Shown here one piece after another: positions 6,393-61,273 of a DNA stretch of 64,000 nucleotides. The position numbers and the translations under genes were made by a program. How positions within the stretch are numbered: the stretch's first letter is position 1; every line of letters begins with the position of its first letter. This stretch comes from Gammaproteobacteria bacterium (GTDB lineage Bacteria > Pseudomonadota > Gammaproteobacteria > SZUA-229): positions 3,848 to 67,847 of the forward strand of contig JAPHRO010000021.1 in the NCBI GenBank assembly GCA_026195895.1, read 5' to 3'. Below the pieces are notes generated by a model. The model searched no databases. It had not been told where the DNA came from and saw only the letters and a program-made list of their open reading frames with translations.

Positions 6393-9305
6393 ATGAAACA
6401 TTCCCCTCTAGTTGATCCCTCGGTGGCTGACAGTCGCATCGAGGTCAAAAACACCACCTGTTATATGTGTGCGTGCCGCTGTGGTATCCGCGTGACGCTG
6501 CGCGATGGTGAAGTGCGTTATATTCAGGGTAATCCTGATCATCCGCTTAACCAGGGTGTGATTTGTGCCAAGGGTGCCTCCGGTATCATGAAGCAGTATT
6601 CGCCGGCGCGTCTGACCAAACCCCTGTTGCGCAAACCCGGCACTGATCGAGGTGATGCCCAGTTCGATGAAATATCCTGGGATAAAGCCTTCGAGATCAT
6701 GGAAGAGCGGCTGACCCATTTGCGCGCTACCGACCCTAGCAAGTTCGCCCTGTTTACGGGCCGTGACCAGATGCAGGCGCTCACCGGCATGTTTGCCAAA
6801 CAGTTTGGTACGCCCAACTATGCGGCCCATGGTGGTTTCTGCTCGGTGAATATGGCCACTGGCATGATCTACACCATCGGTGGTTCTTTCTGGGAGTTCG
6901 GTGGACCGGATCTGGATCGTTCCAAATTGTTCATCATGATTGGTACGGCGGAAGACCATCACTCCAATCCGATGAAAATGGCCCTGTCCAAGTTCAAGCG
7001 TAATGGTGGTCGTTTCATTTCCATCAATCCGGTGCGCACCGGTTATTCGGCCATTGCCGATGAGTGGGTGCCGATCAAACCCGGCACCGACGGCGCATTA
7101 ATATTATGTCTGATTCGTGAGCTGATCGAGCAGGGTCTGTATGACCGTGACTTCCTGGTGCAATATTCGAATTCAGCGCAGCTAATCAACACCGATGAAG
7201 CTTCCGATGATCACGGTATGTTTATTCGTACCGAGACCGATAAAGAGGAAGGCTGTTTCGATCCGATGAATGAGCTGTGGTGGGATCGTCATACGGATAA
7301 AGCGGTCAAGACCCATACCGAAGGTGCTGATCCATTCTTAATGGGTGAGTTCACGCTGGAGGATGGTACCCCGGTAAAACCTGCGTTCCAGTTATTGAAA
7401 GATCAGGTTGAACAGTACACGCCGGAATGGGCGGAAGACGTCACCGGCATTCCCGCCGAGACGATTCGTCGTCTGGCCCACGAAATGGGTATCACTGCGC
7501 GTGATGAAAAAATTGAGCTGCCCATTTCCTGGACCGATGCCTGGGGCAAGGAACACGATACCATTACCGGTAATCCGGTGTCTTTCCATTCCATGCGCGG
7601 TACCGCAGCGCACTCTAATGGTTTCCAGACCATTCGAGCACTGGCTATATTAATGTCAATTCTGGGCACCATTGACCGACCCGGTGGTTTCCGTCACAAG
7701 GCGCCATTCCCGCGTCCGATTCCCCCCTGTGCGAAAACGCCAAAAGGGCCTGAAGGTGTTCAGCCCAATACACCGCTCGGTGGTATGCCTTTAGGCTGGC
7801 CGGCTGATCCGAATGATCTGTTTGTCGATGAAAACCAGAAACCGGTACGTATCGATAAAGCCTTCTCCTGGGAATTCCCGCTGTCGGCCCACGGCCTGAT
7901 GCATAACGTTATCACCAATGCCTGGCGCGGCGATCCCTATAGCATCGACACATTAATGATTTTCATGGCCAATATGGCGTGGAACTCGTCGATGAATACC
8001 AGTGAAGTGCGCAAGATGCTCAACGACAGGAATGAGGATGGCGAATACAGGATCCCGTTCATTATTGTGGCGGACGCCTTCCAGTCGGAAATGTCTGCTT
8101 ACGGTGATCTGGTGCTGCCGGATACGACTTATCTGGAGCGCCATGATGTGATGTCGATGCTGGATCGTCCGATTTCTGAATTCGATGGCCCGGTGGATTC
8201 GGTGCGTATCCCGGTGCTGCCGCCAAAGGGTGAATGCAAGCCGTTCCAGGAAGTGCTGATCGAGATGGGTTCGCGGCTAAAACTGCCCGCCTTCGTTAAA
8301 GAAGATGGCGCACGTAAATACCGCGACTACCCCGACTTTGTGGTCAACTACGAAACCGAGCCCGGTTCCGGTATCGGCTTCCTCGCCGGCTGGCGTGGCA
8401 AGGGTGGCGAGAAGTTCATGAAAGGTGAACCGAACCCGAACCAGTGGGAAATGTACGAAAAGAACAACTGTGTCTATCAGTATCATTTGCCCAAGTCTTA
8501 CCAGTACATGCGTAACTGGAACATGGGGTATTTAAGATGGGCGCAGGATCATCGCCTGACCCGTTATGCCGAGCCGATCAATATCCATATTTATTCGGAA
8601 GTGCTGCAGAAATTCCGTCTGGCAGCGCAGGGTAAACGCAAAGGCAAGCAGCCGCCGGATCATTTGCGCAAACGCGTCGAAGAGCATTTCAATCCGTTGC
8701 CGTTTTATTCCGAGCCGCTGGAAGCGCAGCTCACGGATAAACATAAGTACCCGCTGAATGCGCTGACTCAGCGTCCGATGGCCATGTACCATTCCTGGGA
8801 TTCACAGAATGCCTGGCTGCGTCAGATTCACGCGCATAACTACATGCATGTGCATCCATCGCTGGGTGCCAAACACGGCTTCGGCGATGGCGACTGGATC
8901 TGGGTGGAATCCATGCACGGCAAGGTGCGTTGTATGGCGCGCTTTTCCGAGGCGGTTGAGCCGGGCACTATCTGGACCTGGAATGCAGTGGGTAAAGCCT
9001 CCGGCGCCTGGAATCTGGATGGCAAGGCGAATGAATCCAGAAAAGGCTTCCTGCTGAATCATCTGATAGCCGAAGAACTGCCCGCCCATGAAGCCGGCGA
9101 GCATGTGTCCAATTCGGATCCGATCACCGGCCAGGCGGGCTGGTATGACGTGCGGGTGCGTATCTACAGGGCAAAAGATGACGAGCCAGAAGAAACCTGG
9201 CCGCAGTTCGATACTTTGCAGCCTTATCCGGGTATGGATAAACGTAAATCCTGGCTCGGCTTTTTTGCCGGCACGTTTACCAGGAAAGGGGGAGCAGGTA
9301 AATGA
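6393..9305 (+). CDS. soeA: Mo-bisPGD (DMSO reductase family) catalytic subunit, probably cytoplasmic. Likely sulfite dehydrogenase SoeA-like
   Basis: The N-terminal 4Fe-4S motif is C-x2-C-x-C-x-C at residues 23-30, with no twin-arginine leader. The likely Mo-ligand Cys is in HGGFCSVNMATG. 970 aa, followed by FeS and NrfD-type subunits. Confidence 0.5.
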   Translation: MKHSPLVDPSVADSRIEVKNTTCYMCACRCGIRVTLRDGEVRYIQGNPDHPLNQGVICAKGASGIMKQYSPARLTKPLLRKPGTDRGDAQFDEISWDKAFEIMEERLTHLRATDPSKFALFTGRDQMQALTGMFAKQFGTPNYAAHGGFCSVNMATGMIYTIGGSFWEFGGPDLDRSKLFIMIGTAEDHHSNPMKMALSKFKRNGGRFISINPVRTGYSAIADEWVPIKPGTDGALILCLIRELIEQGLYDRDFLVQYSNSAQLINTDEASDDHGMFIRTETDKEEGCFDPMNELWWDRHTDKAVKTHTEGADPFLMGEFTLEDGTPVKPAFQLLKDQVEQYTPEWAEDVTGIPAETIRRLAHEMGITARDEKIELPISWTDAWGKEHDTITGNPVSFHSMRGTAAHSNGFQTIRALAILMSILGTIDRPGGFRHKAPFPRPIPPCAKTPKGPEGVQPNTPLGGMPLGWPADPNDLFVDENQKPVRIDKAFSWEFPLSAHGLMHNVITNAWRGDPYSIDTLMIFMANMAWNSSMNTSEVRKMLNDRNEDGEYRIPFIIVADAFQSEMSAYGDLVLPDTTYLERHDVMSMLDRPISEFDGPVDSVRIPVLPPKGECKPFQEVLIEMGSRLKLPAFVKEDGARKYRDYPDFVVNYETEPGSGIGFLAGWRGKGGEKFMKGEPNPNQWEMYEKNNCVYQYHLPKSYQYMRNWNMGYLRWAQDHRLTRYAEPINIHIYSEVLQKFRLAAQGKRKGKQPPDHLRKRVEEHFNPLPFYSEPLEAQLTDKHKYPLNALTQRPMAMYHSWDSQNAWLRQIHAHNYMHVHPSLGAKHGFGDGDWIWVESMHGKVRCMARFSEAVEPGTIWTWNAVGKASGAWNLDGKANESRKGFLLNHLIAEELPAHEAGEHVSNSDPITGQAGWYDVRVRIYRAKDDEPEETWPQFDTLQPYPGMDKRKSWLGFFAGTFTRKGGAGK

Positions 9306-17313: not shown

Positions 17314-19017
17314 ATGTACTATGAGCACTTTGGTTTAAGCGAGAACCCCTTTTCGATTGCGCCTGATCCCCGTTATCTCTATATGAGTGAACGTCATCGG
17401 GAGGCGCTGGCGCACCTGGTATATGGGCTGAATTCAGATGGTGCCTTTATTCTACTGACCGGTGATGTCGGCACGGGCAAAACCACGGTGAGTCGTTGTT
17501 TGCTGGAACAGATTCCGGATGATACCAACCTGGCACTGGTGCTGAATCCCAAAGTCAGTGCGCTGGAATTATTAGAGACCATTTGTGATGAGCTGCTGGG
17601 GCGTCATGCGCCTGCAGAGCAGGTGCACAATAGCGTCGGCCATGTCAGCATAAAAATACTGGTGGATATTATTAACCGCTATTTGCTGGAGGCGCATGCG
17701 CAGGGCAAAAAGACGGTAGTTTTAATTGAAGAAGCGCAGAATCTGGATCTGGATGTGCTCGAACAATTACGCCTGCTCACCAATCTGGAAACCAACGAAC
17801 ACAAGCTGCTGCAAATCATTTTACTGGGGCAGCCCGAGTTGCTGGATGTGCTGGATAAGCCTGAATTATCGCAACTGGCGCAGCGGATTACCGCACGCTA
17901 TCACCTGTCACCTTTAAACGAAAAGGAAATGGTGTCCTATGTATCGCATCGGTTAGCAGTGGCTGGCTGTCGGCAAAAACTGTTCCCGGCGTTGACGCTG
18001 AAACGCCTGTATAAATTAAGCAAGGGCATTCCCCGCGTCGTGAATGTGCTGTGTGATCGCGCTTTACTGGGTAGCTATGTGCAGAATAAAACGCAGGTGG
18101 ATATAAAAACACTGGAAAATGCGGCGCGCGAAGTACTGGGTGATAAAACGCGGCATAAAAAAAATAACCCGGCCCGCACATTGGCCTGGTCTGCGACCTT
18201 GGCGAGTGTGTTAGCACTAACCATTGGCGCACTTGTTTATTTCTATCCCGAGGCTGTTACTGAAAATGTTGCTGAGCTGTCAGCCGTGCTGCCGGAAAAT
18301 AATATTCCGCCTGACGCGGAACAGAATAGTGACATGCCGGAAAAGATAGAAAAGCCAGAAAAGACAGAACAAATTGTTACTGCCATGCCGCAGCAGGCGG
18401 AAAAATTACGCTGGCCAGATGAAACCCAGCGCCTGCGGAGTAATTCGCTAGCCTATCAGAGTTTATTCAGGCGCTGGAATCTGGAGTATGATCCGCAAAC
18501 AGACGGCACGCCCTGTTTTTATGCACAAAAGCAGGGGCTGGCCTGTTTGCATGGCCATGCAGATATGGACAAACTGCGGACTTTTAATCGACCGGCCATC
18601 CTGAAGTTATTTGATGAACAGCAGCGCTCCTATTTTGTCACTCTGACCGGTATGGGAAATCAGTTGGCGCTGCTCGATGTGGTTGCTGAGCAGCAGGCGT
18701 TATCGGTTGATCAGATCAACAAATACTGGAATGGTGAATTTACCCTGCTCTGGCACCAGCCTCCCGGTTATCAGAACTCTATTCACCCGGGACATCAGGG
18801 TGATGATGTGCTCTGGTTAACCCAGAAACTGAACCAGCTGGATTCAACAAACGTGATTCCGGAAGTGTCTATTTACCAGTCGGAGTTAATTGACAAAGTC
18901 CGGCGTTTTCAATTAAGCAGAGGCCTGGTTGATGATGGCATTGTCGGTGTCATCACCTTAATGCATATTAATAATGCTACAGGGGCACAGGCGCCGGTGC
19001 TGGAGAATAACGGCTGA
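17314..19017 (+). CDS. exeA: type II secretion system protein A (ExeA/GspA), AAA ATPase with a C-terminal peptidoglycan-binding domain
   Basis: MYYEHFGLSENPF N-terminus, Walker A GDVGTGKTT, and a C-terminal PG-binding-like LSRGLVDDGIVG. Confidence 0.8.
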   Translation: MYYEHFGLSENPFSIAPDPRYLYMSERHREALAHLVYGLNSDGAFILLTGDVGTGKTTVSRCLLEQIPDDTNLALVLNPKVSALELLETICDELLGRHAPAEQVHNSVGHVSIKILVDIINRYLLEAHAQGKKTVVLIEEAQNLDLDVLEQLRLLTNLETNEHKLLQIILLGQPELLDVLDKPELSQLAQRITARYHLSPLNEKEMVSYVSHRLAVAGCRQKLFPALTLKRLYKLSKGIPRVVNVLCDRALLGSYVQNKTQVDIKTLENAAREVLGDKTRHKKNNPARTLAWSATLASVLALTIGALVYFYPEAVTENVAELSAVLPENNIPPDAEQNSDMPEKIEKPEKTEQIVTAMPQQAEKLRWPDETQRLRSNSLAYQSLFRRWNLEYDPQTDGTPCFYAQKQGLACLHGHADMDKLRTFNRPAILKLFDEQQRSYFVTLTGMGNQLALLDVVAEQQALSVDQINKYWNGEFTLLWHQPPGYQNSIHPGHQGDDVLWLTQKLNQLDSTNVIPEVSIYQSELIDKVRRFQLSRGLVDDGIVGVITLMHINNATGAQAPVLENNG

Positions 19018-22914: not shown

Positions 22915-23187
22915 CCGCTAAGTCTTTATATTGATCCATTTATCCAGCGGCCTGTGAACTGTCTCACAGCCGGATTATGGATGATTAACATTTTGTCGTT
23001 ATATGTTTCATACTGATTTTAAGGCAAATGTTTCGAGGCTAGCAACATGCAGGCAGCACATTACATACTAATCAGCATGACTTTTATTGTTTTAATGTTG
23101 TCCTATGTAACAACTTTAATATAGTGATCTGATGCGATATTAATAATCAGGAATTCAATGCCGAATTCGGTGATATAATCCGGCTTT

Positions 23188-25226: not shown

Positions 25227-26846
25227 TTATGATGTTTTAAATCGGTGAGTCATCTCTTCAAGCTGTGTTGCCAGGTTAGCTAATTCCTGACTGGCGGCAG
25301 CAATCTGGCTGGCGCCATCAGCGGCCTGATCGGTCATATCGCTGGTGGTAATAATATTTCTGTTGATCTCTTCTGATACTGCCGTTTGTTCTTCGGATGC
25401 GCTGGCAATCTGTGTACTCATGTCATGGATGCTGCTGACAGCATCAGCAATGGTGTTGAGCGACTTATTCGCCTGCGATGCCTGTTCAACCACTGTTTTG
25501 GTCTGTTCACGACTTTGTGTCATAACATCGACGGCGGCCTGTGTGCCATGCAATAGCTCGTCAATCATCTGATTGATTTCTTCAGTAGATTGCTGGGTAC
25601 GGCTGGCCAGGGTACGGACTTCATCGGCAACGACAGCAAAGCCCCGTCCCTGTTCGCCGGCTCTTGCGGCTTCAATTGCGGCGTTCAGGGCTAATAAATT
25701 GGTCTGCTCGGCAATCCCTTTAATAACATCAAGTACGCCAGTAATATTCTGGCTGTTTTGTTCAAGCTTATGAATTGTATCGGCGGCATTTTCAATTTGG
25801 CCGGAAAGCTGCTGAATATTGCTCATTGCCTGATTAACGACCTGTTGTCCAGATGCTGCCTCCATGCTGGCTTGCCGCGCAGCGTCAGCCGTATGATTAA
25901 TATTTGATGAAACTTCATGAACAGTAGCCGTCATTTCATTCATTGCCGTTGCCACCTGATCAGTCTCTATTCTTTGTTGTTGTAAGCTCTGATCAGTTTC
26001 TGAAGTTATAACCGATAATTGCTCAGCCGCCGCTGACAATTGTGATGTAGTGCCATTAATTTTAGAGATCATCTCCAGCAGGCTCTGGCGGGTGATATTT
26101 AACGATGATGATAGTTCACCTATTTCGTCATGGCGGTTGAGCGCTTTCTCATTAGTTAAATCACCCTCAGAAATTTGTTTGAGCTGACTAACCAGTACAG
26201 GTAAATCAGCCAGTGCTTTAGACATAATGAAATAAAAAATAAATACGAAAAAAAGCACAATTGTGGAACTCACATAAATCATATTTACTGATTGATGATT
26301 TTTTTGCCGCTGTTGTGTTAATAGCAGATTTGTTCGATCTTTATTTGTCTCTAATAACTCACCTACCATGGTCATTATTTTTCCGGCGACCGTATCAAAT
26401 TCTGCCATGGTCTGGTTGCCGCCTTCAGGACCCTGATCAATATAGGTTTGTGCCATTTTTTTACCTACGTCATAGTAGGCATTAAATGCCGGTTTTATAT
26501 TGTCATATTTAGCCTGATTTTTATTGTCCAGATGTTTTAATTCATCAAGTAATGCATAGACTTTCTGTGCATTATTCTCAGCTTCATCAAAGCCATCATT
26601 CAGGCCGTCCATTGCGCGTGTTGCGCTGATGTCGGTTAGCCATTGCTGAACCTGTACAACTGCCAGTTTTAATTCTTCTGACTTGATTAATATGGGGATG
26701 GCCTTATCCCCCAAAATATCACCGGAGCTTTCGATATTTTTCAAGTTGAATATAAGAAAGGCACTGACTATTAGCACGGCAATTGTCAGTATCAATACCA
26801 GAATGTTCTGTTTTCTTCGCAGGGAAATATGGTGCAATTTAATCAT
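25227..26846 (-). CDS. methyl-accepting chemotaxis protein
   Basis: Two TM segments flank a periplasmic sensor domain. Has HAMP and a highly conserved MA domain ([31 protein letters not shown]). Confidence 0.85.
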
Positions 26847-56710: not shown

Positions 56711-57194
56711 CCGCTGTTATCGAGTTGTACCGCCAACCCTGGTAGTGGCACTAATGCTAATGATGTTGCCGTTGCCGGACTGGGCGCAGGCTTTTCGTCC
56801 GGACTGGGTAACGCTGGTGGTGATTTACTGGATAATGGCTGTGCCCGAAAACGTTGGTGTGACTGTTGCCTGGATTTTTGGTCTGTTGCTGGACGTTACT
56901 CAGGGTTCAATTTTAGGCCAGCATGCCATTGGCCTGGTGCTGGTGGCTTATCTGGTGCAACTACAGTATTTGCGTATTCGCGTATATTCTCTGGTGCAGC
57001 AATCATTAGTGGTTTTTGTGTTGTTAATGATTAAGCAGCTGCTGGTGCTCTGGGTAAACGGCATCGTAGGGCAGGCGCCCGATGATTTGGCCAGTTATTT
57101 TTTACCCAGTCTGATGGGCGCCATTATCTGGCCCTGGTTATTTGTGATTTTACGCGATATTCGTCGGCGTTTTACCCACACCAAAATATTCTAA
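56700..57194 (+). CDS. mreD: rod shape-determining protein MreD
   Basis: 5-TM protein of about 164 aa. Its ATG overlaps the mreC stop. ORF 56538 was trimmed. Confidence 0.8.
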   Translation: MLDSRCYRVVPPTLVVALMLMMLPLPDWAQAFRPDWVTLVVIYWIMAVPENVGVTVAWIFGLLLDVTQGSILGQHAIGLVLVAYLVQLQYLRIRVYSLVQQSLVVFVLLMIKQLLVLWVNGIVGQAPDDLASYFLPSLMGAIIWPWLFVILRDIRRRFTHTKIF

Positions 57195-58669
57195 TCGACA
57201 GACACCGTGCGTTCACTGGCCCAGTGACGTAGCTGGTTTATTTGTTCGTCCATCACAATCGACAGGGGTCGCGTCTGTTTTATTTCACTTAGAAAATCTT
57301 GCGTTTTAATGGGGCTGGATTGGCCATGACTGGCATACATTACTGAGACTATCGCCTGTTCTATTTCTGCGCCAGAAAAGCCCTTACTGGCCAGAGCCAA
57401 CTGCTGAAAATCAATATTTGTTTCAGGTAAATTACGTTTTTTAAAATGGATTTTGAATATGCTTTGTCGAGCTGGATGATCGGGCAGATCCACAAAAAAT
57501 ATTTCATCCAGTCTGCCCTTGCGGATCAGCTCCGGAGGCAGAGCTTCTATTTGATTGGCAGTGGCGACTATGAAAACAGGATGTTTGTTTTCAGCCATCC
57601 AGGTCAACAGGCTGCCAAGCAGGCGCTTTGATGTGCCTTCATCTTCGCTGCCCGAGGAAATGCCTTTTTCCAGCTCATCTATCCATAAAACACAGGGCGC
57701 CATAACTTCGGCTGTATGCAATGCCTGGCGTAGATTGCGCTCGGTTTCGCCGACGTACTTGTTATACAACTGACCGAAATCGAGCCGCAGCAGTGGGATA
57801 CCCCAGATGCCCGCAACAGATTTAGCGGCCAGGCTTTTACCGCACCCCTGGACACCCAGTAATAAAATCCCTTTAGGTCGATCCAGGTCGGTGGGTAAGT
57901 CTGCGCCATTCTGAAAGGCGGACTGGCGTTGTTCTAACCAGATTTTGAGTTTTTTCATGCCGCCGACATCAGAAAAATGAGCGGTTTCATATTCAAAGGC
58001 CAATATTTCATCCTGGTTGAGCAGGCGATATTTGGCTTCCATAACTTCCGGTAAATCAGTTTCAGTAATAGCACCATCATCTATAATTGCGTTACGAATC
58101 AGTCGATTAGAATCATTAAAGCTAAGTCCGGACAGGTTTTGTATTAATCGATCCAGTGTTGGGCGATCAGTGCGAACCCGGTTTTGATTCTGGTTTTGCC
58201 AGTTGCGCGCTTCTGTTTTGATCAATTCTTCCAGTTCAGCAGGACTGGGTAAGCGCAATTGAAACTTTGCGGTCAGGCGCTGCAGGTTTTTGGGTAATGA
58301 AAGCCGGTGGCTAACTAGAATCAACTTTCCTTTGTTGCCTTCAAACATCATGGCAATTTCTTTTAGCAGGCGTATATTGATCGGGTCGTTTAAGTAAGGA
58401 TCAAAGTCCAGCAGGACATAGAGGCCTTGCAGGTTTGACGCCTTAATATGGCGTAGTGCATCCTGTGGGGCGGCGACATGTTTCTGCGGGTCAAGATCAA
58501 TATCGAGGCGCTGTAATCCGTCTGTGACTGTCCATTTAAACAGGGGGATAAAAGTTCGAGTTGCGCTGTTGATAAGCAGCTCAAGTGTGCGACGTTCTTC
58601 AAAGGTCTCTACTGCAATGATGGGTACATGACCACGTATCAATAAATCCAGATCATGTTTGTCTGACAT
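57191..58669 (-). CDS. classical AAA family ATPase with an N-terminal domain of about 250 aa of unknown function
   Basis: Walker A GVQGCGKSL, Walker B LWIDELEK, and the second region of homology VATANQIEALPPELIRKGRLD. The N-terminal half resembles a degenerate nucleotide-binding fold (YVLLDFD, KLILVSH). Confidence 0.7.
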   Translation of the reverse strand: MSDKHDLDLLIRGHVPIIAVETFEERRTLELLINSATRTFIPLFKWTVTDGLQRLDIDLDPQKHVAAPQDALRHIKASNLQGLYVLLDFDPYLNDPINIRLLKEIAMMFEGNKGKLILVSHRLSLPKNLQRLTAKFQLRLPSPAELEELIKTEARNWQNQNQNRVRTDRPTLDRLIQNLSGLSFNDSNRLIRNAIIDDGAITETDLPEVMEAKYRLLNQDEILAFEYETAHFSDVGGMKKLKIWLEQRQSAFQNGADLPTDLDRPKGILLLGVQGCGKSLAAKSVAGIWGIPLLRLDFGQLYNKYVGETERNLRQALHTAEVMAPCVLWIDELEKGISSGSEDEGTSKRLLGSLLTWMAENKHPVFIVATANQIEALPPELIRKGRLDEIFFVDLPDHPARQSIFKIHFKKRNLPETNIDFQQLALASKGFSGAEIEQAIVSVMYASHGQSSPIKTQDFLSEIKQTRPLSIVMDEQINQLRHWASERTVSVD

Positions 58670-58742: not shown

Positions 58743-59603
58743 ATGTTCCCACTTAAACAGGCGCTGGCCGAATACGGTTTTGAATCCCGTGAAAATTATG
58801 ATTACGCTATTCAGCGTTTTCTTGAACACCCGAATGAAAATATTCGTTGTCTGAATGTAGATGGCGAGCCGGGACGGCGTAAAACCGCTTTCGCTAATGC
58901 ATTGGCGCAGGCGTTGAAAGTCAGTCATGTGCTTTACTATGAGTTTGGAGCGGATAAACCCGTGCCGCAGACGGTGCGAGTGGTTGAAGGTGAGGAGCTC
59001 CCGGAAGAGCCTCCCACCCAGCCATTCGATCGGATTATGACGGAAGCCTGTGCATTAAGTGAGGCTGAAAGCATCATCTTAATACTGGATCAGTTGCATC
59101 TGGCTGAATTTCAGCAGCATCTTCGACTATTTGAATTTGTAAAAACTAAGATCTGGGCGTATAGCGATGTACAGTTTCATGCTAATCAGGCCAATTTGAT
59201 TGTGTTTTTGCTTTCAAACGAGCCGCTATACCACTCATTGCAGGTGAATAGCTTCAGGTTGTGGGTCAGTGCAGTACCTGAAGATACTGGCAAACCGCTG
59301 CCAGAAGAGCTGGGACTGGATGATAGCTGCCAGGAATGGCTTGATCCTCTGAATGAACTGATTTCAAAGCTCGGCCTCACTCCGTCCATCAAAGAATATC
59401 AAAAGCTGGCACACGACATAGAGCAGTCTGTTCGCACCGAAGAACAGCTAAAAATATCGATATTTGGCTGGCTTGAAAATGTAGATCGTAATTTACTCAA
59501 TAGCCGTGTTCTGTCACCTCTGCTGGTGAGGGTTCTAAGAGCAATTGAGGATAATTTGAGCATCCAGGAAGAGATTGAATTAAGTTCCGAAGGAATAGAT
59601 TGA
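58743..59603 (+). CDS. hypothetical protein with a degenerate P-loop (GEPGRRKT), possibly a pseudo-ATPase partner of the divergent AAA ATPase
   Basis: G-x-P-G-x-x-K-T at residues 40-47, then a hydrophobic strand with D (ILILDQ) but no catalytic Glu. No recognised family. Confidence 0.35.
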   Translation: MFPLKQALAEYGFESRENYDYAIQRFLEHPNENIRCLNVDGEPGRRKTAFANALAQALKVSHVLYYEFGADKPVPQTVRVVEGEELPEEPPTQPFDRIMTEACALSEAESIILILDQLHLAEFQQHLRLFEFVKTKIWAYSDVQFHANQANLIVFLLSNEPLYHSLQVNSFRLWVSAVPEDTGKPLPEELGLDDSCQEWLDPLNELISKLGLTPSIKEYQKLAHDIEQSVRTEEQLKISIFGWLENVDRNLLNSRVLSPLLVRVLRAIEDNLSIQEEIELSSEGID

Positions 59604-59685: not shown

Positions 59686-59880
59686 CGTTGTTATATCTAT
59701 AACGAAATTATCATAGTGATTTTTCCCTAATATCGTAATTTTTGTGATCAATCAACGGAAAGTGCTTGATAAATCATTGAAAAATACTATTAATTGTAGG
59801 TATTCAGGTTGTCCAGCTTAATCAATATGTGATCTGATTAACAGCGGGCTTCTAGCGTAAATATTAGACTTTAGTTGTGA

Positions 59881-60276
59881 TTGGAGTATTTGACGGTAAT
59901 GAGTATTCAATATAGCTCTGATAGCCAATATGCAGGACATTTGCCGCAGCGAGATGTAAGTAGTACTGCGCGGCTATTTAATTTTAATCGTCCAGTGTAT
60001 ATGACCGATTCAGTTTGGCATGATTGTGTTGAGTTAATGGATCGGAATGGCAAGACTATTGATGAACTGGCGGTACTGCAGCGTTTAAGGCATGTGCTTT
60101 TTATGGCGTCTAGCGCTTTACATGGTCGGGTAAAAGATGTGGAATGTGAATTTCGTATTCATCGTGTGCCTAATGATAAAAAGGCTCGCCACCCTGAAGC
60201 CACTACGCTCAAGATAGAAGCTCATTCAGATCAGTTCAATCAACCCGTTATTACTATTAAACATCCTAATGAGTAG
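59881..60276 (+). CDS. hypothetical protein, paralog 1 of a tandem pair, no recognised family
   Basis: Shares a core of about 100 aa with the next ORF (STARLFNFxRPVYMTxxVWxDCVEL...DELAVLQRLRHVLFMAxSALHGR...PVITIKxP). Confidence 0.5.
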   Translation: MEYLTVMSIQYSSDSQYAGHLPQRDVSSTARLFNFNRPVYMTDSVWHDCVELMDRNGKTIDELAVLQRLRHVLFMASSALHGRVKDVECEFRIHRVPNDKKARHPEATTLKIEAHSDQFNQPVITIKHPNE

Positions 60277-60290
60277 TATGTACTATTGTT

Positions 60291-60677
60291 ATGTATCCGG
60301 AAGAAGAATATCACTTAAGTAACGATCAAAATCCCGAGTTGAGGGACGTAACGAGTACGGCACGATTATTTAATTTCAGAAGACCTGTATACATGACATC
60401 GGCAGTATGGGAAGACTGTGTAGAGCTGGAATCAAAAGATGGTAAATCCTTTGATGAACTAGCTGTATTGCAGCGTTTGCGGCATGTGTTGTTTATGGCG
60501 GCAAGTGCCTTGCATGGCCGGTTTGAAGATCTGGATTATGATTTCCGAGTATATCGAATACCTAACAACTCTATCAATGGACGACGCCAGCCTGAACCAG
60601 TGAGTTTGCATCTCCAGGCGCATAAGGATGATCATAATCGTCCTGTGATTACTATCAAATTTCCTGACAAAGCTTAA
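60291..60677 (+). CDS. hypothetical protein, paralog 2 of the tandem pair
   Basis: About 50% identical to the preceding ORF across the conserved core. Separated from it by a 14-bp spacer. Confidence 0.5.
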   Translation: MYPEEEYHLSNDQNPELRDVTSTARLFNFRRPVYMTSAVWEDCVELESKDGKSFDELAVLQRLRHVLFMAASALHGRFEDLDYDFRVYRIPNNSINGRRQPEPVSLHLQAHKDDHNRPVITIKFPDKA

Positions 60678-60737: not shown

Positions 60738-61244
60738 ATGAAAAATAATTTACTGACCAGTTTGTTTGGTCGCCATAAGCAGCAAATTAAGCCCGATGCC
60801 TCTAAATCTTCCATATGTTTTGAAGATATCAGTGTGCTGATTGTGGATGATTCCAGAACGCAGTTATATGCTCTGGAGAAAATACTTAATAGCGTTGGCA
60901 TCAATACCATTACTGCAGAAAATGGCAAGCAGGGTATTCTCATGGCGCGCCATAAAAAGCCTGATCTGATTTTGATGGACATAGTGATGCCTGAAATCAA
61001 CGGTTTTCAGGCGACTCGGTATTTAACTCGGCAGCCAGATACTGGCCATATTCCTATCATCATCATCAGTGGTTCAAGTCAGGGGTCGGATAAAGTTTGG
61101 GGTATTAAGCTGGGTGCCAGGGACTTTATGCAAAAGCCCGTCGATAAAAAAGAATTACTGGATAAAATAGAGCACTGGCTGACTGAGAAATCGTTAGCAG
61201 CAACAGATAGTTCGCCTGAGCAGTCTTATGTTCAGGCTGTTTAG
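60738..61244 (+). CDS. single-domain response regulator (CheY-like receiver) with a 30-aa N-terminal extension
   Basis: VLIVDDS...LILMDIVMPEINGFQATR...KP. Paralogous to the receiver at 19920-20285. Confidence 0.75.
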   Translation: MKNNLLTSLFGRHKQQIKPDASKSSICFEDISVLIVDDSRTQLYALEKILNSVGINTITAENGKQGILMARHKKPDLILMDIVMPEINGFQATRYLTRQPDTGHIPIIIISGSSQGSDKVWGIKLGARDFMQKPVDKKELLDKIEHWLTEKSLAATDSSPEQSYVQAV

Positions 61245-61273
61245 TCTTTGAGTATGACGCTGGTTTGTGAATA

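What the first reader, a model, noticed from the sequence alone, without database searches (positions are those of the whole stretch)
59881..60677. Tandem duplicated ~130-aa proteins of unknown family
The two adjacent ORFs are separated by 14 bp. They share a conserved core: DV(S/T)STARLFNF-RPVYMT-VW-DCVEL-GK-DELAVLQRLRHVLFMA-SALHGR, then a variable basic segment, then PVITIK-P. Their N-termini diverge. I cannot place the core in any family. It has no TM segment and no signal peptide. The HGR and RxH residues could suggest a nucleic-acid-binding or enzymatic role. Tandem divergent duplication next to an AAA machine suggests paired substrates or adaptors, or a toxin-immunity-like pair.
Basis: seen in the sequence. 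Interest (0 to 1): 0.6.

Follow-up and report, generated by a model that had tools for sequence, protein, structure and literature searches.

The report
Tandem chromosomal DUF6573-like protein pair
Two neighbouring small genes are real, ancient duplicates of a divergent, chromosome-fixed branch of DUF6573, a protein family of unknown function otherwise found on plasmids. They travel with a CheY-like signalling gene rather than with the nearby AAA ATPase, which makes them a modest curiosity rather than a new kind of system.

Summary
A (59899-60276, probably 125 aa) and B (60291-60677, 128 aa) lie 14 bp apart and are 63% identical over 110 aa (E 4e-53). Both are under strong purifying selection (dN/dS 0.02-0.13).

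The family can be placed: it is a divergent branch of Pfam DUF6573 (PF20213). Single sequences score below Pfam's cut-off, but profile-profile comparison gives 99.8% probability (E 2e-30). B itself hits 172 plasmids at 37-42% identity. Canonical DUF6573 is a plasmid gene of unknown function. No solved or viral structure matches the AF2 model.

Here the gene is chromosomal and vertically inherited in one clade of uncultured marine Gammaproteobacteria. One old duplication produced A and B, and a sister clade keeps a single copy.

The 492-aa AAA ATPase is dispensable (present in 28/44 two-copy loci). The near-constant neighbours are:
- a 286-aa AAA+-fold protein with degenerate Walker motifs (52/53);
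- a CheY-like receiver gene downstream (53/54; 4-24 bp away in most single-copy loci read).

A CRP-type site, TGTGA-N6-TAACA, lies upstream of A in 30/30 two-copy loci examined.

Best reading, which is inference: A and B are partner subunits that work with the receiver. The toxin-immunity reading is rejected. Function remains untested.

The parts
59899..60276 (+). Gene A: DUF6573-like protein, 125 aa. The mechanical ORF extends to a TTG at 59881, giving 131 aa.
   Evidence: ORF list. It is 100% identical to the 125-aa database protein P0121. A-type orthologues form their own clade. dN/dS is 0.02-0.09. It gives a weak PF20213 hit at E 0.01.
60291..60677 (+). Gene B: DUF6573-like protein, 128 aa, paralogue of A (63% identity).
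   Evidence: All 120 best database hits are B-type orthologues. The AF2 model has pLDDT 79 and pTM 0.76. hhalign against canonical DUF6573 gives 99.8% probability. tblastn hits 172 plasmids at 37-42% identity.
59828..59843 (+). Conserved CRP-type operator-like site, TGTGATCTGATTAACA (TGTGA-N6-TAACA), 71 nt upstream of the A start codon.
   Evidence: It is present 63-82 nt upstream of the A ATG in 30/30 two-copy loci examined. The half-sites are invariant and the spacer varies. It is absent in the single-copy clade. It is the only occurrence in the window, against 0.21 expected by chance. Binding was not tested.
59838..59865 (+). Promoter-like site TTAACA-16-AATATT, overlapping the operator-like site.
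   Evidence: Consensus scan only, 9 of 12 matches. This is not evidence of function on its own.
60738..61244 (+). Single-domain CheY-like response regulator (168 aa, with an N-terminal extension of about 30 aa), probably co-transcribed with A and B.
   Evidence: PF00072 at E 6.7e-28. The closest solved relatives are the PleD receiver and DivK. It is adjacent in 53/54 two-copy and 7/8 single-copy loci. In the single-copy clade it follows 4-24 bp after the DUF6573-like gene in L033, L092, L094, L096 and L102, and about 100 bp after it in L034, L035 and L097. The acceptor residues (DD, D80, S110, K132) were read from the sequence.
61214..61247 (+). Terminator-like hairpin at the end of the response-regulator gene. 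None was found between A, B and the regulator.
   Evidence: Consensus scan: 9-bp stem with 5 GC pairs.
58743..59603 (+). p286: a 286-aa acidic AAA+-fold protein with degenerate nucleotide-site motifs, and an almost constant upstream neighbour.
   Evidence: The AF2 model has pLDDT 84.6. Foldseek finds NorQ/CbbQ (MoxR class), Rubisco activase and RuvB, with best E 4e-8. The P-loop is G-D-x-G-R-R-(R/K)-T and Walker B is D-Q. It is adjacent in 52/53 two-copy loci. Distant homologues occur without any DUF6573-like gene.
57191..58669 (-). 492-aa classic AAA ATPase (Cdc48/VCP D2-like) with a unique N-terminal domain. It is divergent from p286 and is a variable neighbour.
   Evidence: PF00004 at E 5e-31. 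phrog_8638 matches over the full length at E 4e-116. The best PDB hits are VCP-like ATPases. It is present in only 28/44 two-copy and 2/6 single-copy loci.

Best explanation
A and B are two real, co-transcribed genes for soluble alpha/beta proteins of 14-15 kDa. They are ancient tandem paralogues within a divergent, chromosomally fixed branch of DUF6573 (PF20213), a family otherwise carried on plasmids.

History:
- An ancestor of one clade of uncultured marine Gammaproteobacteria carried a DUF6573-type gene immediately upstream of a CheY-like receiver gene. Both sat downstream of the mreBCD / (AAA) / p286 region.
- The gene later duplicated once.
- Both copies have been kept under strong purifying selection in every descendant examined, so they are not redundant.

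Most likely mechanism (inferred, not shown):
- The proteins are binding modules rather than enzymes.
- After the duplication, a presumed homo-oligomer became an A/B hetero-oligomer.
- This complex works with the co-transcribed receiver protein, as its target, connector or modulator.
- The operon is controlled by a CRP-family regulator through the conserved TGTGA-N6-TAACA site.
- The fully invariant helix segment Q61-RLRHVLFMA-70 is the probable interaction surface.

They are not obligate partners of the 492-aa AAA ATPase, and they are not a toxin-immunity pair.
For: Shown:
- Paralogy: E 4e-53.
- Separate A and B orthologue clades with parallel topologies, and a single-copy sister clade branching at the base.
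- dN/dS of 0.02-0.13 for both copies.
- Homology to DUF6573: 82 of 119 members hit PF20213, best E 1.4e-6. hhalign gives 99.8% probability, E 2.3e-30, over 113 columns. tblastn of B hits 172 plasmids annotated as DUF6573. Residues D19, W40, D42, C43, R62, R89 and the P-V-I-T-I motif are shared.
- Core chromosomal, syntenic location in 28 GTDB species and about 100 metagenome loci.
- Neighbour statistics: receiver 53/54 and 7/8, p286 52/53 and 6/6, AAA 28/44 and 2/6.
- Gaps of 4-24 bp to the receiver gene in five single-copy loci (L033, L092, L094, L096, L102); three others have about 100 bp.
- The DUF6573-like gene and the receiver gene are both absent next to distant p286 homologues.
- No terminator-like site between A, B and the receiver gene; one at its end.
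- The operator-like site is conserved in 30/30 two-copy loci examined, with a variable spacer.
- Residues 61-70 are 100% invariant in both paralogues. Only six positions are fixed differently between A and B.
Against: - No interaction of any kind was tested.
- No multimer model could be made.
- The fold has no significant structural neighbour, so nothing independent supports 'binding module' over 'enzyme'.
- Synteny across the clade may largely reflect vertical descent rather than functional coupling.
- Exceptions exist: L047 keeps A and B without the receiver gene, and L012 keeps them without p286.
- Conserved polar residues shared with the plasmid homologues (D19, D42, C43, R62, R89) could equally form a catalytic or ligand site.
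- The CRP-type site is a consensus resemblance. Its second half-site is TAACA, not TCACA.
Confidence: 0.5

Rival explanations
1. A and B are substrates, adaptors or regulators of an AAA+ machine. They would act on or with the 492-aa Cdc48-like AAA ATPase and/or the degenerate AAA+ protein p286, for example as paired adaptor subunits.
For: Both AAA-type genes lie immediately upstream. p286 is adjacent in 52/53 two-copy and 6/6 single-copy loci. p286 has the fold of MoxR-class ATPases, which typically work with dedicated partner proteins (the role of MoxR partners is from general knowledge).
Against: The 492-aa AAA gene is missing from 16/44 two-copy and 4/6 single-copy loci that keep A/B. AAA/p286 pairs (L091, L093, L099) and many p286 homologues exist with no DUF6573-like gene nearby. 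A roughly 300-bp intergenic region with its own conserved operator-like site separates p286 from A. p286 lacks the Walker B glutamate and the canonical P-loop glycine, with the lysine replaced by arginine in 65/116, so it is probably not an active motor.
Confidence: 0.17
2. A and B still perform the ancestral (unknown) job of plasmid DUF6573 proteins, for example countering a host nuclease or defence system, or handling incoming DNA. The chromosomal setting would then be incidental.
For: Homology to a family found on 292 plasmids, 164 of them conjugative, and on no phage record. On those plasmids the gene lies in same-strand runs of small hypothetical genes beside T4SS or maintenance genes, or about 5 kb from a Streptomyces linear-plasmid end. 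One fusion protein sits next to a DUF6094 gene.
Against: The locus is core, syntenic and vertically inherited, with no mobile-element hallmarks. There are no PADLOC or PHROG hits. The branch has lost the N-terminal Y-x-R-A-x-A-I-x-D-G helix and the GPGD motif. It has gained its own invariant residues: R18, S22, T23, R64, H65, H75, G76 and R77. It is coupled to a receiver gene that plasmid homologues lack. The proteins are not strongly acidic, so they are not DNA-mimic-like.
Confidence: 0.13
3. A and B are small enzymes or ligand/phosphoryl-handling proteins. They could be a phosphotransfer or phosphatase partner of the orphan receiver using invariant His65/His75. Alternatively, they could be nucleotide or nucleic-acid binders using the Arg/His cluster.
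For: This branch has invariant R18, R31, R62, R64, H65, H75, R77 and R89. H65 replaces the Asp of plasmid homologues. H65 is kept in the receiver-linked single-copy genes, whereas P0244, which has no adjacent receiver gene, has Ser there. No kinase or Hpt gene was seen among the genes read around the operon, 54 to 64 kb of the window.
Against: There is no similarity to Hpt, Spo0B/ChpT, CheZ, CheX or any enzyme fold in sequence or Foldseek searches. The His observation rests on one counter-example. The proteins are near-neutral or mildly acidic overall.
Confidence: 0.1
4. A and B form a toxin-immunity or toxin-antitoxin-like pair.
For: Only the tight tandem arrangement of two small genes.
Against: The two are 63% identical paralogues, unlike toxin/antidote partners. 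One copy alone persists in the sister clade. Both show housekeeping-like purifying selection and strict vertical synteny. There are no hits in defence or phage libraries.
Confidence: 0.02

Closest known systems
Pfam DUF6573 (PF20213), annotated by NCBI as 'DUF6573 family protein'. These are stand-alone proteins of about 140 aa, or C-terminal domains, on plasmids of Xanthomonas, Streptomyces, Pseudomonas, Burkholderia, PromA-type plasmids (pSB102) and others.
   Same: Homologous over the whole domain (hhalign 99.8%, E 2e-30; 37-42% pairwise identity). The predicted order of secondary-structure elements is the same. The shared core is D-V, F, P-V, W-x-D-C-V, R-L, V-L-x-M-A, F, R-V-P, L and P-V-I-T-I. 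Function is unknown in both.
   Different: - A and B score below Pfam's gathering cut-off (16-18 versus 27 bits).
- They lack the N-terminal Y-x-R-A-x-A-I-x-D-G helix and the GPGD motif.
- They carry branch-specific invariant residues (R18, S22, T23, R64, H65, HGR).
- They are chromosomal and vertically inherited, tandemly duplicated, and coupled to a receiver gene and a CRP-type site. None of this is seen on the plasmids.
Small connector or anti-adaptor proteins that bind response-regulator receiver domains, such as IraP/IraD/IraM on RssB and PmrD on PmrA. This is a functional analogy from general knowledge only.
   Same: Small soluble proteins proposed to act by binding a receiver domain.
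   Different: There is no sequence or fold relationship, and no interaction was shown here. The known connectors are not usually co-transcribed paralogue pairs.
MoxR-class AAA+ ATPases (NorQ, CbbQ). This applies to the neighbour p286, not to A or B.
   Same: The AAA+ alpha/beta core plus helical lid. These are the best Foldseek matches, at E 4e-8 to 2e-6.
   Different: The P-loop is G-D-x-G-R-R-(R/K)-T and Walker B is D-Q. No VWA-domain partner gene is adjacent. No Pfam family reaches its cut-off.
NTF2-like alpha+beta cone proteins (VirB8, SnoaL-like cyclases, designed NTF2 folds).
   Same: Many of the insignificant top Foldseek hits to the B model belong to this fold class.

Membership tests
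DUF6573 (PF20213) | A single sequence reaches Pfam's gathering score (27 bits). | tested here: not met
   A scores 16.3 bits (E 0.01) and B 18.4 bits (E 0.0023). Of 119 family members, 82 hit at E<=0.1, best 1.4e-6.
DUF6573 (PF20213) | Homology over the full domain, shown by profile-profile and pairwise comparison with bona fide members. | tested here: met
   hhalign of A1 against 70 canonical members gives probability 99.8%, E 2.3e-30, over 113 columns. The profile search retrieves proteins of which all nine canonical ones scanned score 85-103 bits on PF20213. tblastn of B hits 172 plasmid genes at 37-42% identity over 87-90% of B.
DUF6573 (PF20213) | Conserved core residues (D-V, W-x-D-C-V, R-L, R-V-P, P-V-I-T-I). 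| tested here: met
   Column-by-column comparison of 119 own-branch and 142 canonical sequences.
DUF6573 (PF20213) | The N-terminal Y-x-R-A-x-A-I-x-D-G segment and the G-P-G-D loop of canonical members. | tested here: not met
   The A and B N-termini are unrelated and variable. GPGD is replaced by A-H-x-D/E.
DUF6573 (PF20213) | The usual genomic setting: plasmid-borne, within runs of small hypothetical genes. | tested here: not met
   Canonical members are on 292 plasmids. A and B sit in a core chromosomal locus between mreBCD and coq7.
Toxin-antitoxin or toxin-immunity pair | Two functionally distinct partners, both needed together, with a patchy or mobile distribution. | tested here: not met
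   The partners are 63% identical paralogues. The sister clade has one copy only. Synteny is strictly vertical and dN/dS is low.
Dedicated partner of the adjacent 492-aa AAA ATPase | Consistent co-occurrence of the two genes across genomes. | tested here: not met
   The AAA gene is present in 28/44 two-copy and 2/6 single-copy loci. The AAA/p286 pair is also found without a DUF6573-like gene.
Operon partner of a CheY-like response regulator | Consistent adjacency on the same strand, with short gaps and no intervening terminator. | tested here: met
   53/54 two-copy and 7/8 single-copy loci. Gaps are 4-24 bp in five single-copy loci (about 100 bp in three others) and 60 bp here. No terminator-like site lies between them. 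Co-transcription itself was not measured.
Operon partner of a CheY-like response regulator | Physical or functional interaction with the receiver domain. | not testable with these tools
   No multimer prediction or experiment was available.
CRP/FNR-family regulated promoter | An inverted-repeat site TGTGA-N6-TCACA near the promoter, conserved across orthologous promoters. | tested here: inconclusive
   TGTGA-N6-TAACA has one mismatch in the second half-site. It is conserved in 30/30 two-copy loci examined, with a variable spacer. Binding by a CRP-family protein was not tested. A single occurrence is not significant on its own: 19 of 100 shuffles give at least one.
AAA+ ATPase (for p286) | The AAA+ fold. 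| tested here: met
   Foldseek finds NorQ, CbbQ, Rubisco activase, RuvB and dynein AAA modules at E 4e-8 to 1e-5, probability 1.00.
AAA+ ATPase (for p286) | Canonical Walker A (GxxxxGK[ST]) and Walker B (hhhhDE). | tested here: not met
   The motif is G41-D-x-G44-R45-R46-(R 65 / K 51 of 116)-T48. Walker B is D116-Q117, with Q in 108 of 116.

The most novel reading that the evidence does not exclude
The receiver-linked DUF6573 branch may be a new class of response-regulator partner built on a fold with no solved relative. It could be an output or connector complex, or a phosphoryl-handling protein that uses the invariant His65, which replaces Asp in the plasmid homologues. It would have been recruited from a plasmid gene. 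That would give the first functional handle on the whole DUF6573 family, including its several hundred plasmid copies.
Probability: 0.12. Interest if true: 0.6.

Novelty: new variant of a known kind. Interest (0 to 1): 0.33.

Why it matters
If the inferred partnership is right, a plasmid-borne protein of unknown function has been domesticated. It would have been duplicated and wired into a CRP-controlled signalling operon in a widespread group of uncultured marine (vent, sediment and symbiont-related) Gammaproteobacteria. This clade's strictly conserved A-B-receiver operon would then be a tractable entry point for assigning a function to DUF6573. That family sits on hundreds of plasmids, most of them conjugative, and has no literature and no solved structure. 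In itself, though, the finding is a pair of conserved hypothetical proteins. It does not overturn anything known.

Tried and rejected
- **Family libraries.** Pfam gave only the weak PF20213 hit, and NCBIfam, PADLOC and PHROGs gave nothing for A or B. PHROGs also has nothing for canonical DUF6573 or its fusion proteins.
- **Sequence searches of PDB.** Profiles of this branch and of canonical DUF6573 found nothing. The N-terminal domain of the 367-aa fusion protein also found nothing.
- **Literature.** No paper in the library mentions DUF6573 or PF20213. Neither do the supplements of the 2024 paper on plasmid leading regions.
- **DNA-mimic idea.** Rejected, because the mean pI is 5.5-6.9.
- **'DUF6573 is a leading-region gene'.** This could not be established. 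In pCIX43 the gene is about 9 kb from the relaxase-like gene, and no oriT is annotated. Neighbouring plasmid ORFs have no Pfam hits.
- **P0243.** This 1518-aa protein with 23 partial matches is a repeat artefact and was ignored.
- **RNA searches.** No Rfam family and no tRNA were found in the window.
- **Earlier idea dropped.** I first read the AAA gene as a recent insertion. I abandoned this when AAA/p286 pairs turned up in the single-copy clade and in more distant genomes.

Full report

The window has two same-strand ORFs, 59881..60276 and 60291..60677, 14 nt apart. BLASTP gives 63% identity over 110 residues (E 4e-53), and the first ~20 residues are unrelated.

The first gene more probably begins at ATG 59899 (125 aa). 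The identical database entry P0121 is 125 aa, orthologues are 120-127 aa, and the ATG aligns between genomes.

Both genes are real and constrained:
- Two searches of 5.8 billion proteins each return 315 clusters.
- The 120 best hits of B are all closer to B than to A. The best hits listed for A are A-type orthologues, headed by the identical P0121.
- dN/dS is 0.02-0.13 for both genes in pairs where dS is not saturated.
- Neither protein has a hydrophobic stretch.

**2. Which family?**

Pfam gives only a sub-threshold hit to DUF6573 (PF20213), at 16.3 and 18.4 bits against a cut-off of 27. The hit is nevertheless systematic and holds up:
- 82 of 119 relatives hit the same model, covering the same region.
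- A profile of the family searched against 1.84 billion representatives finds only about eight representatives of its own branch. After those come canonical DUF6573 proteins; all nine canonical ones that were scanned score 85-103 bits on PF20213.
- hhalign between the two alignments gives 99.8% probability, E 2.3e-30, over 113 columns.
- B alone hits 172 plasmid genes annotated as DUF6573, at 37-42% identity.

The two branches share D19-V20, A24, F29, P32-V33, W40, D42-C43-V44, R62-L63, V66-L67, M69-A70, F85, R89, L106 and P118-x-x-T121-I122 in B numbering.

The branch in this window lacks the canonical N-terminal Y-x-R-A-x-A-I-x-D-G segment and the GPGD loop. It has its own invariant residues: R18, S22, T23, R31, D55, E56, R64, H65, H75, G76, R77 and N92.

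**3. Where does canonical DUF6573 live?**

tblastn of a canonical member finds 292 plasmids and no phage record. Xanthomonas accounts for 129, Streptomyces for 37, and Acinetobacter, Rhodococcus, Burkholderia, Pseudomonas and PromA-type plasmids are also represented; 164 of the 292 are typed as conjugative.

The gene lies in several kinds of setting:
- same-strand runs of small hypothetical genes next to T4SS or maintenance genes;
- about 5 kb from the end of a Streptomyces linear plasmid;
- as the C-terminal domain of 200-370-aa proteins with unknown N-terminal domains, one of them beside a DUF6094 gene.

None of these contexts resembles the one in the window.

**4. The context here, and how constant it is**

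The window is ordinary chromosome. Around the pair the order is gatC / mreB-mreC-mreD / AAA(-) / p286 / A / B / receiver / coq7(-) / glcF-like(-). I mapped these proteins onto 113 related loci, 102 of them non-identical, drawn from species-representative genomes and metagenomes. All are uncultured Gammaproteobacteria. Two are labelled Thiotrichaceae, and one is the endosymbiont of Galathealinum brachiosum.

| Neighbour | Two-copy loci (59) | Single-copy loci (8) |
|---|---|---|
| 492-aa AAA gene | 28/44 | 2/6 |
| p286 | 52/53 (absent in L012) | 6/6 |
| Receiver gene | 53/54 (absent in L047) | 7/8 |

Denominators count the loci in which the relevant flank is covered.

- In single-copy loci L033, L092, L094, L096 and L102 the DUF6573-like gene ends 4-24 bp before the receiver gene. 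In L034, L035 and L097 the gap is about 100 bp.
- More distant p286 homologues (37-47% identity) have no DUF6573-like gene nearby, by HMM search.
- Those distant homologues have variable neighbours, including TatD, LysM-SLT, BolA with DinB, and a pilGHI-like cluster.
- Three of them keep the divergent AAA/p286 pair.

So AAA/p286 is the older pair. The DUF6573-like gene and the receiver gene appear together and disappear together, and the AAA gene is dispensable for A and B.

**5. History of the duplication**

A neighbour-joining tree rooted on canonical DUF6573 places P0244 first. P0244 comes from a 1.8-kb contig (L036) with no adjacent receiver gene. After it, the single-copy clade, the B clade and the A clade branch together. 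The A and B clades have parallel internal topologies.

This means one duplication, at or near the base of the two-copy clade, with both copies retained in every descendant locus. Only six positions are fixed differently between the paralogues: R30/N, A71/S, Y83/C, Y88/H, V104/T and R117/Q. Residues 61-70 (QRLRHVLFMA, in the long helix) are 100% invariant in both.

**6. Regulation**

The roughly 300-bp region between p286 and A is poorly conserved, apart from one block: TGTGA-N6-TAACA at 59828-59843.
- It lies 63-82 nt upstream of the A start codon in 30 of 30 two-copy loci examined.
- The half-sites are invariant and the spacer varies.
- It is absent in the single-copy clade.

This is the CRP-family consensus (TGTGA-N6-TCACA, from general knowledge) with one mismatch. 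It overlaps a promoter-like TTAACA-16-AATATT site. The only terminator-like hairpin downstream is at the end of the receiver gene. Taken together, these suggest one A-B-receiver transcription unit under a CRP-family regulator. This is inference; a single occurrence of the motif is not significant by itself.

**7. The neighbours**

- **p286.** It folds as an AAA+ protein (pLDDT 84.6). The best matches are NorQ/CbbQ, Rubisco activase and RuvB. Its P-loop is G-D-x-G-R-R-(R/K)-T and its Walker B is D-Q, so it is probably not an active ATPase. It is strongly acidic, with pI 4.8.
- **The 492-aa protein.** It has a classic Cdc48/VCP D2-like AAA domain behind a unique N-terminal domain. It matches a phage protein family over its full length.
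- **The receiver.** It has all the acceptor-site residues and is generic; its nearest solved relatives are the PleD receiver and DivK.

**8. What it most likely does**

What is shown is the following: homology to DUF6573, chromosomal fixation, one old duplication with both copies retained under selection, tight linkage to a receiver gene, near-constant linkage to p286, loose linkage to the AAA gene, and a conserved operator-like site.

What follows is inference. The proteins are binding modules. A and B form a hetero-oligomer that descends from a homo-oligomeric ancestor. This complex acts with the co-transcribed receiver protein, using the invariant helix as the interaction surface.

I put about 0.5 on this package. 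Most of the uncertainty lies in the mechanism, not in the identity.

Rivals:
- Partners of p286 or the AAA ATPase (0.17).
- The ancestral plasmid-type role retained (0.13).
- A small enzyme or phosphoryl-handling protein using His65, which replaces Asp of the plasmid homologues (0.10).
- A toxin-immunity pair (0.02).

**9. Novelty and verdict**

This is a new, unannotated variant of a known but uncharacterised family, in a new setting: chromosomal, duplicated and linked to a receiver gene. It is solidly documented but functionally unresolved, and of moderate-to-low general interest.

Noticed in passing
window 59828-59843: A CRP-type site, TGTGATCTGATTAACA, lies upstream of gene A. It is conserved in position and in its half-sites in 30/30 two-copy loci examined, with a variable spacer. 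It is absent in the single-copy sister clade.
   Followed up: yes
window 22953-22968: A perfect CRP-consensus palindrome, TGTGA-N6-TCACA, matched on both strands. It is the only other TGTGA-N6-TNACA site in the window. Its neighbouring genes were not examined.
   Followed up: no
window 58743-59603: p286 is an acidic AAA+-fold protein nearest to NorQ/CbbQ. Its P-loop has an invariant Arg in place of the Gly before the Lys, and Lys or Arg at the Lys position. Its Walker B is D-Q. It is probably an ATPase-dead AAA+. Its family reaches well beyond the A/B clade and occurs in varied contexts.
   Followed up: partly
window 57191-58669 (-) and 58743-59603 (+): The divergent pair of the 492-aa Cdc48-like AAA gene and p286 recurs in distant genomes (L091, L093, L099) without A, B or the receiver gene. 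The AAA gene has also been lost repeatedly within the A/B clade. It matches phrog_8638 over its full length.
   Followed up: partly
L008, L010, L013, L019, L021, L023, L025, L028-L030, L032 (AAA-less loci): Where the AAA gene is absent, p286 starts close downstream of mreD on the same strand. The gap is 8-36 bp in L021, L023, L025, L028, L030 and L032, and up to about 190 bp in the other listed loci. p286 may therefore be transcribed with mreBCD.
   Followed up: no
L101 6001-10660: A distant p286 homologue (45% identity) sits directly upstream of two receiver genes, a CheW gene and a 669-aa ORF. The arrangement resembles pilG-pilH-pilI-pilJ.
   Followed up: no
L003 12332-16384: Next to the syntenic locus in one relative there is a Mu-like prophage fragment (Portal_Mu, Phage_Mu_F) carrying a small gene with an Acb2/Tad1-hairpin Pfam hit, which suggests an anti-defence sponge.
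   Followed up: no
L006 (pSB102, AJ304453.1) 6860-8011: The old pSB102 record annotates a '39.4 kDa hypothetical protein' on the strand opposite the DUF6573 ORF (7001-7381, +). This is probably a mis-annotation that hides the real gene.
   Followed up: no
window 60291-60677; database protein P0043: The deposited MAG annotation of B (OQL06_04815) is only 94 aa. Orthologues and the ORF itself support 127-128 aa, so the deposited start codon is likely too far downstream.
   Followed up: partly
L012 5940-6324 and L047 7945-8105: These are two natural 'knock-outs'. One MAG keeps A and B but lacks p286. Another keeps p286, A and B but lacks the receiver gene.
   Followed up: yes
P0247, P0260, P0261, P0297, P0360: A recurrent N-terminal domain of about 220 aa is fused to canonical DUF6573. 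It has no Pfam, PHROG or PDB match. P0260 lies near a DUF6094 gene.
   Followed up: partly
P0243: A 1518-aa protein made of about 23 short repeats scores E 7e-32 against the family profile by summing weak matches. It is a repeat artefact, not a relative.
   Followed up: yes
window 17314-19017 and 25227-26846: The window also encodes an ExeA/GspA-like protein (AAA_22 plus a peptidoglycan-binding domain) and a methyl-accepting chemotaxis protein. No histidine kinase was seen among the ten largest upstream ORFs that were scanned or among the genes around the pair; the rest of the window was not scanned.
   Followed up: no
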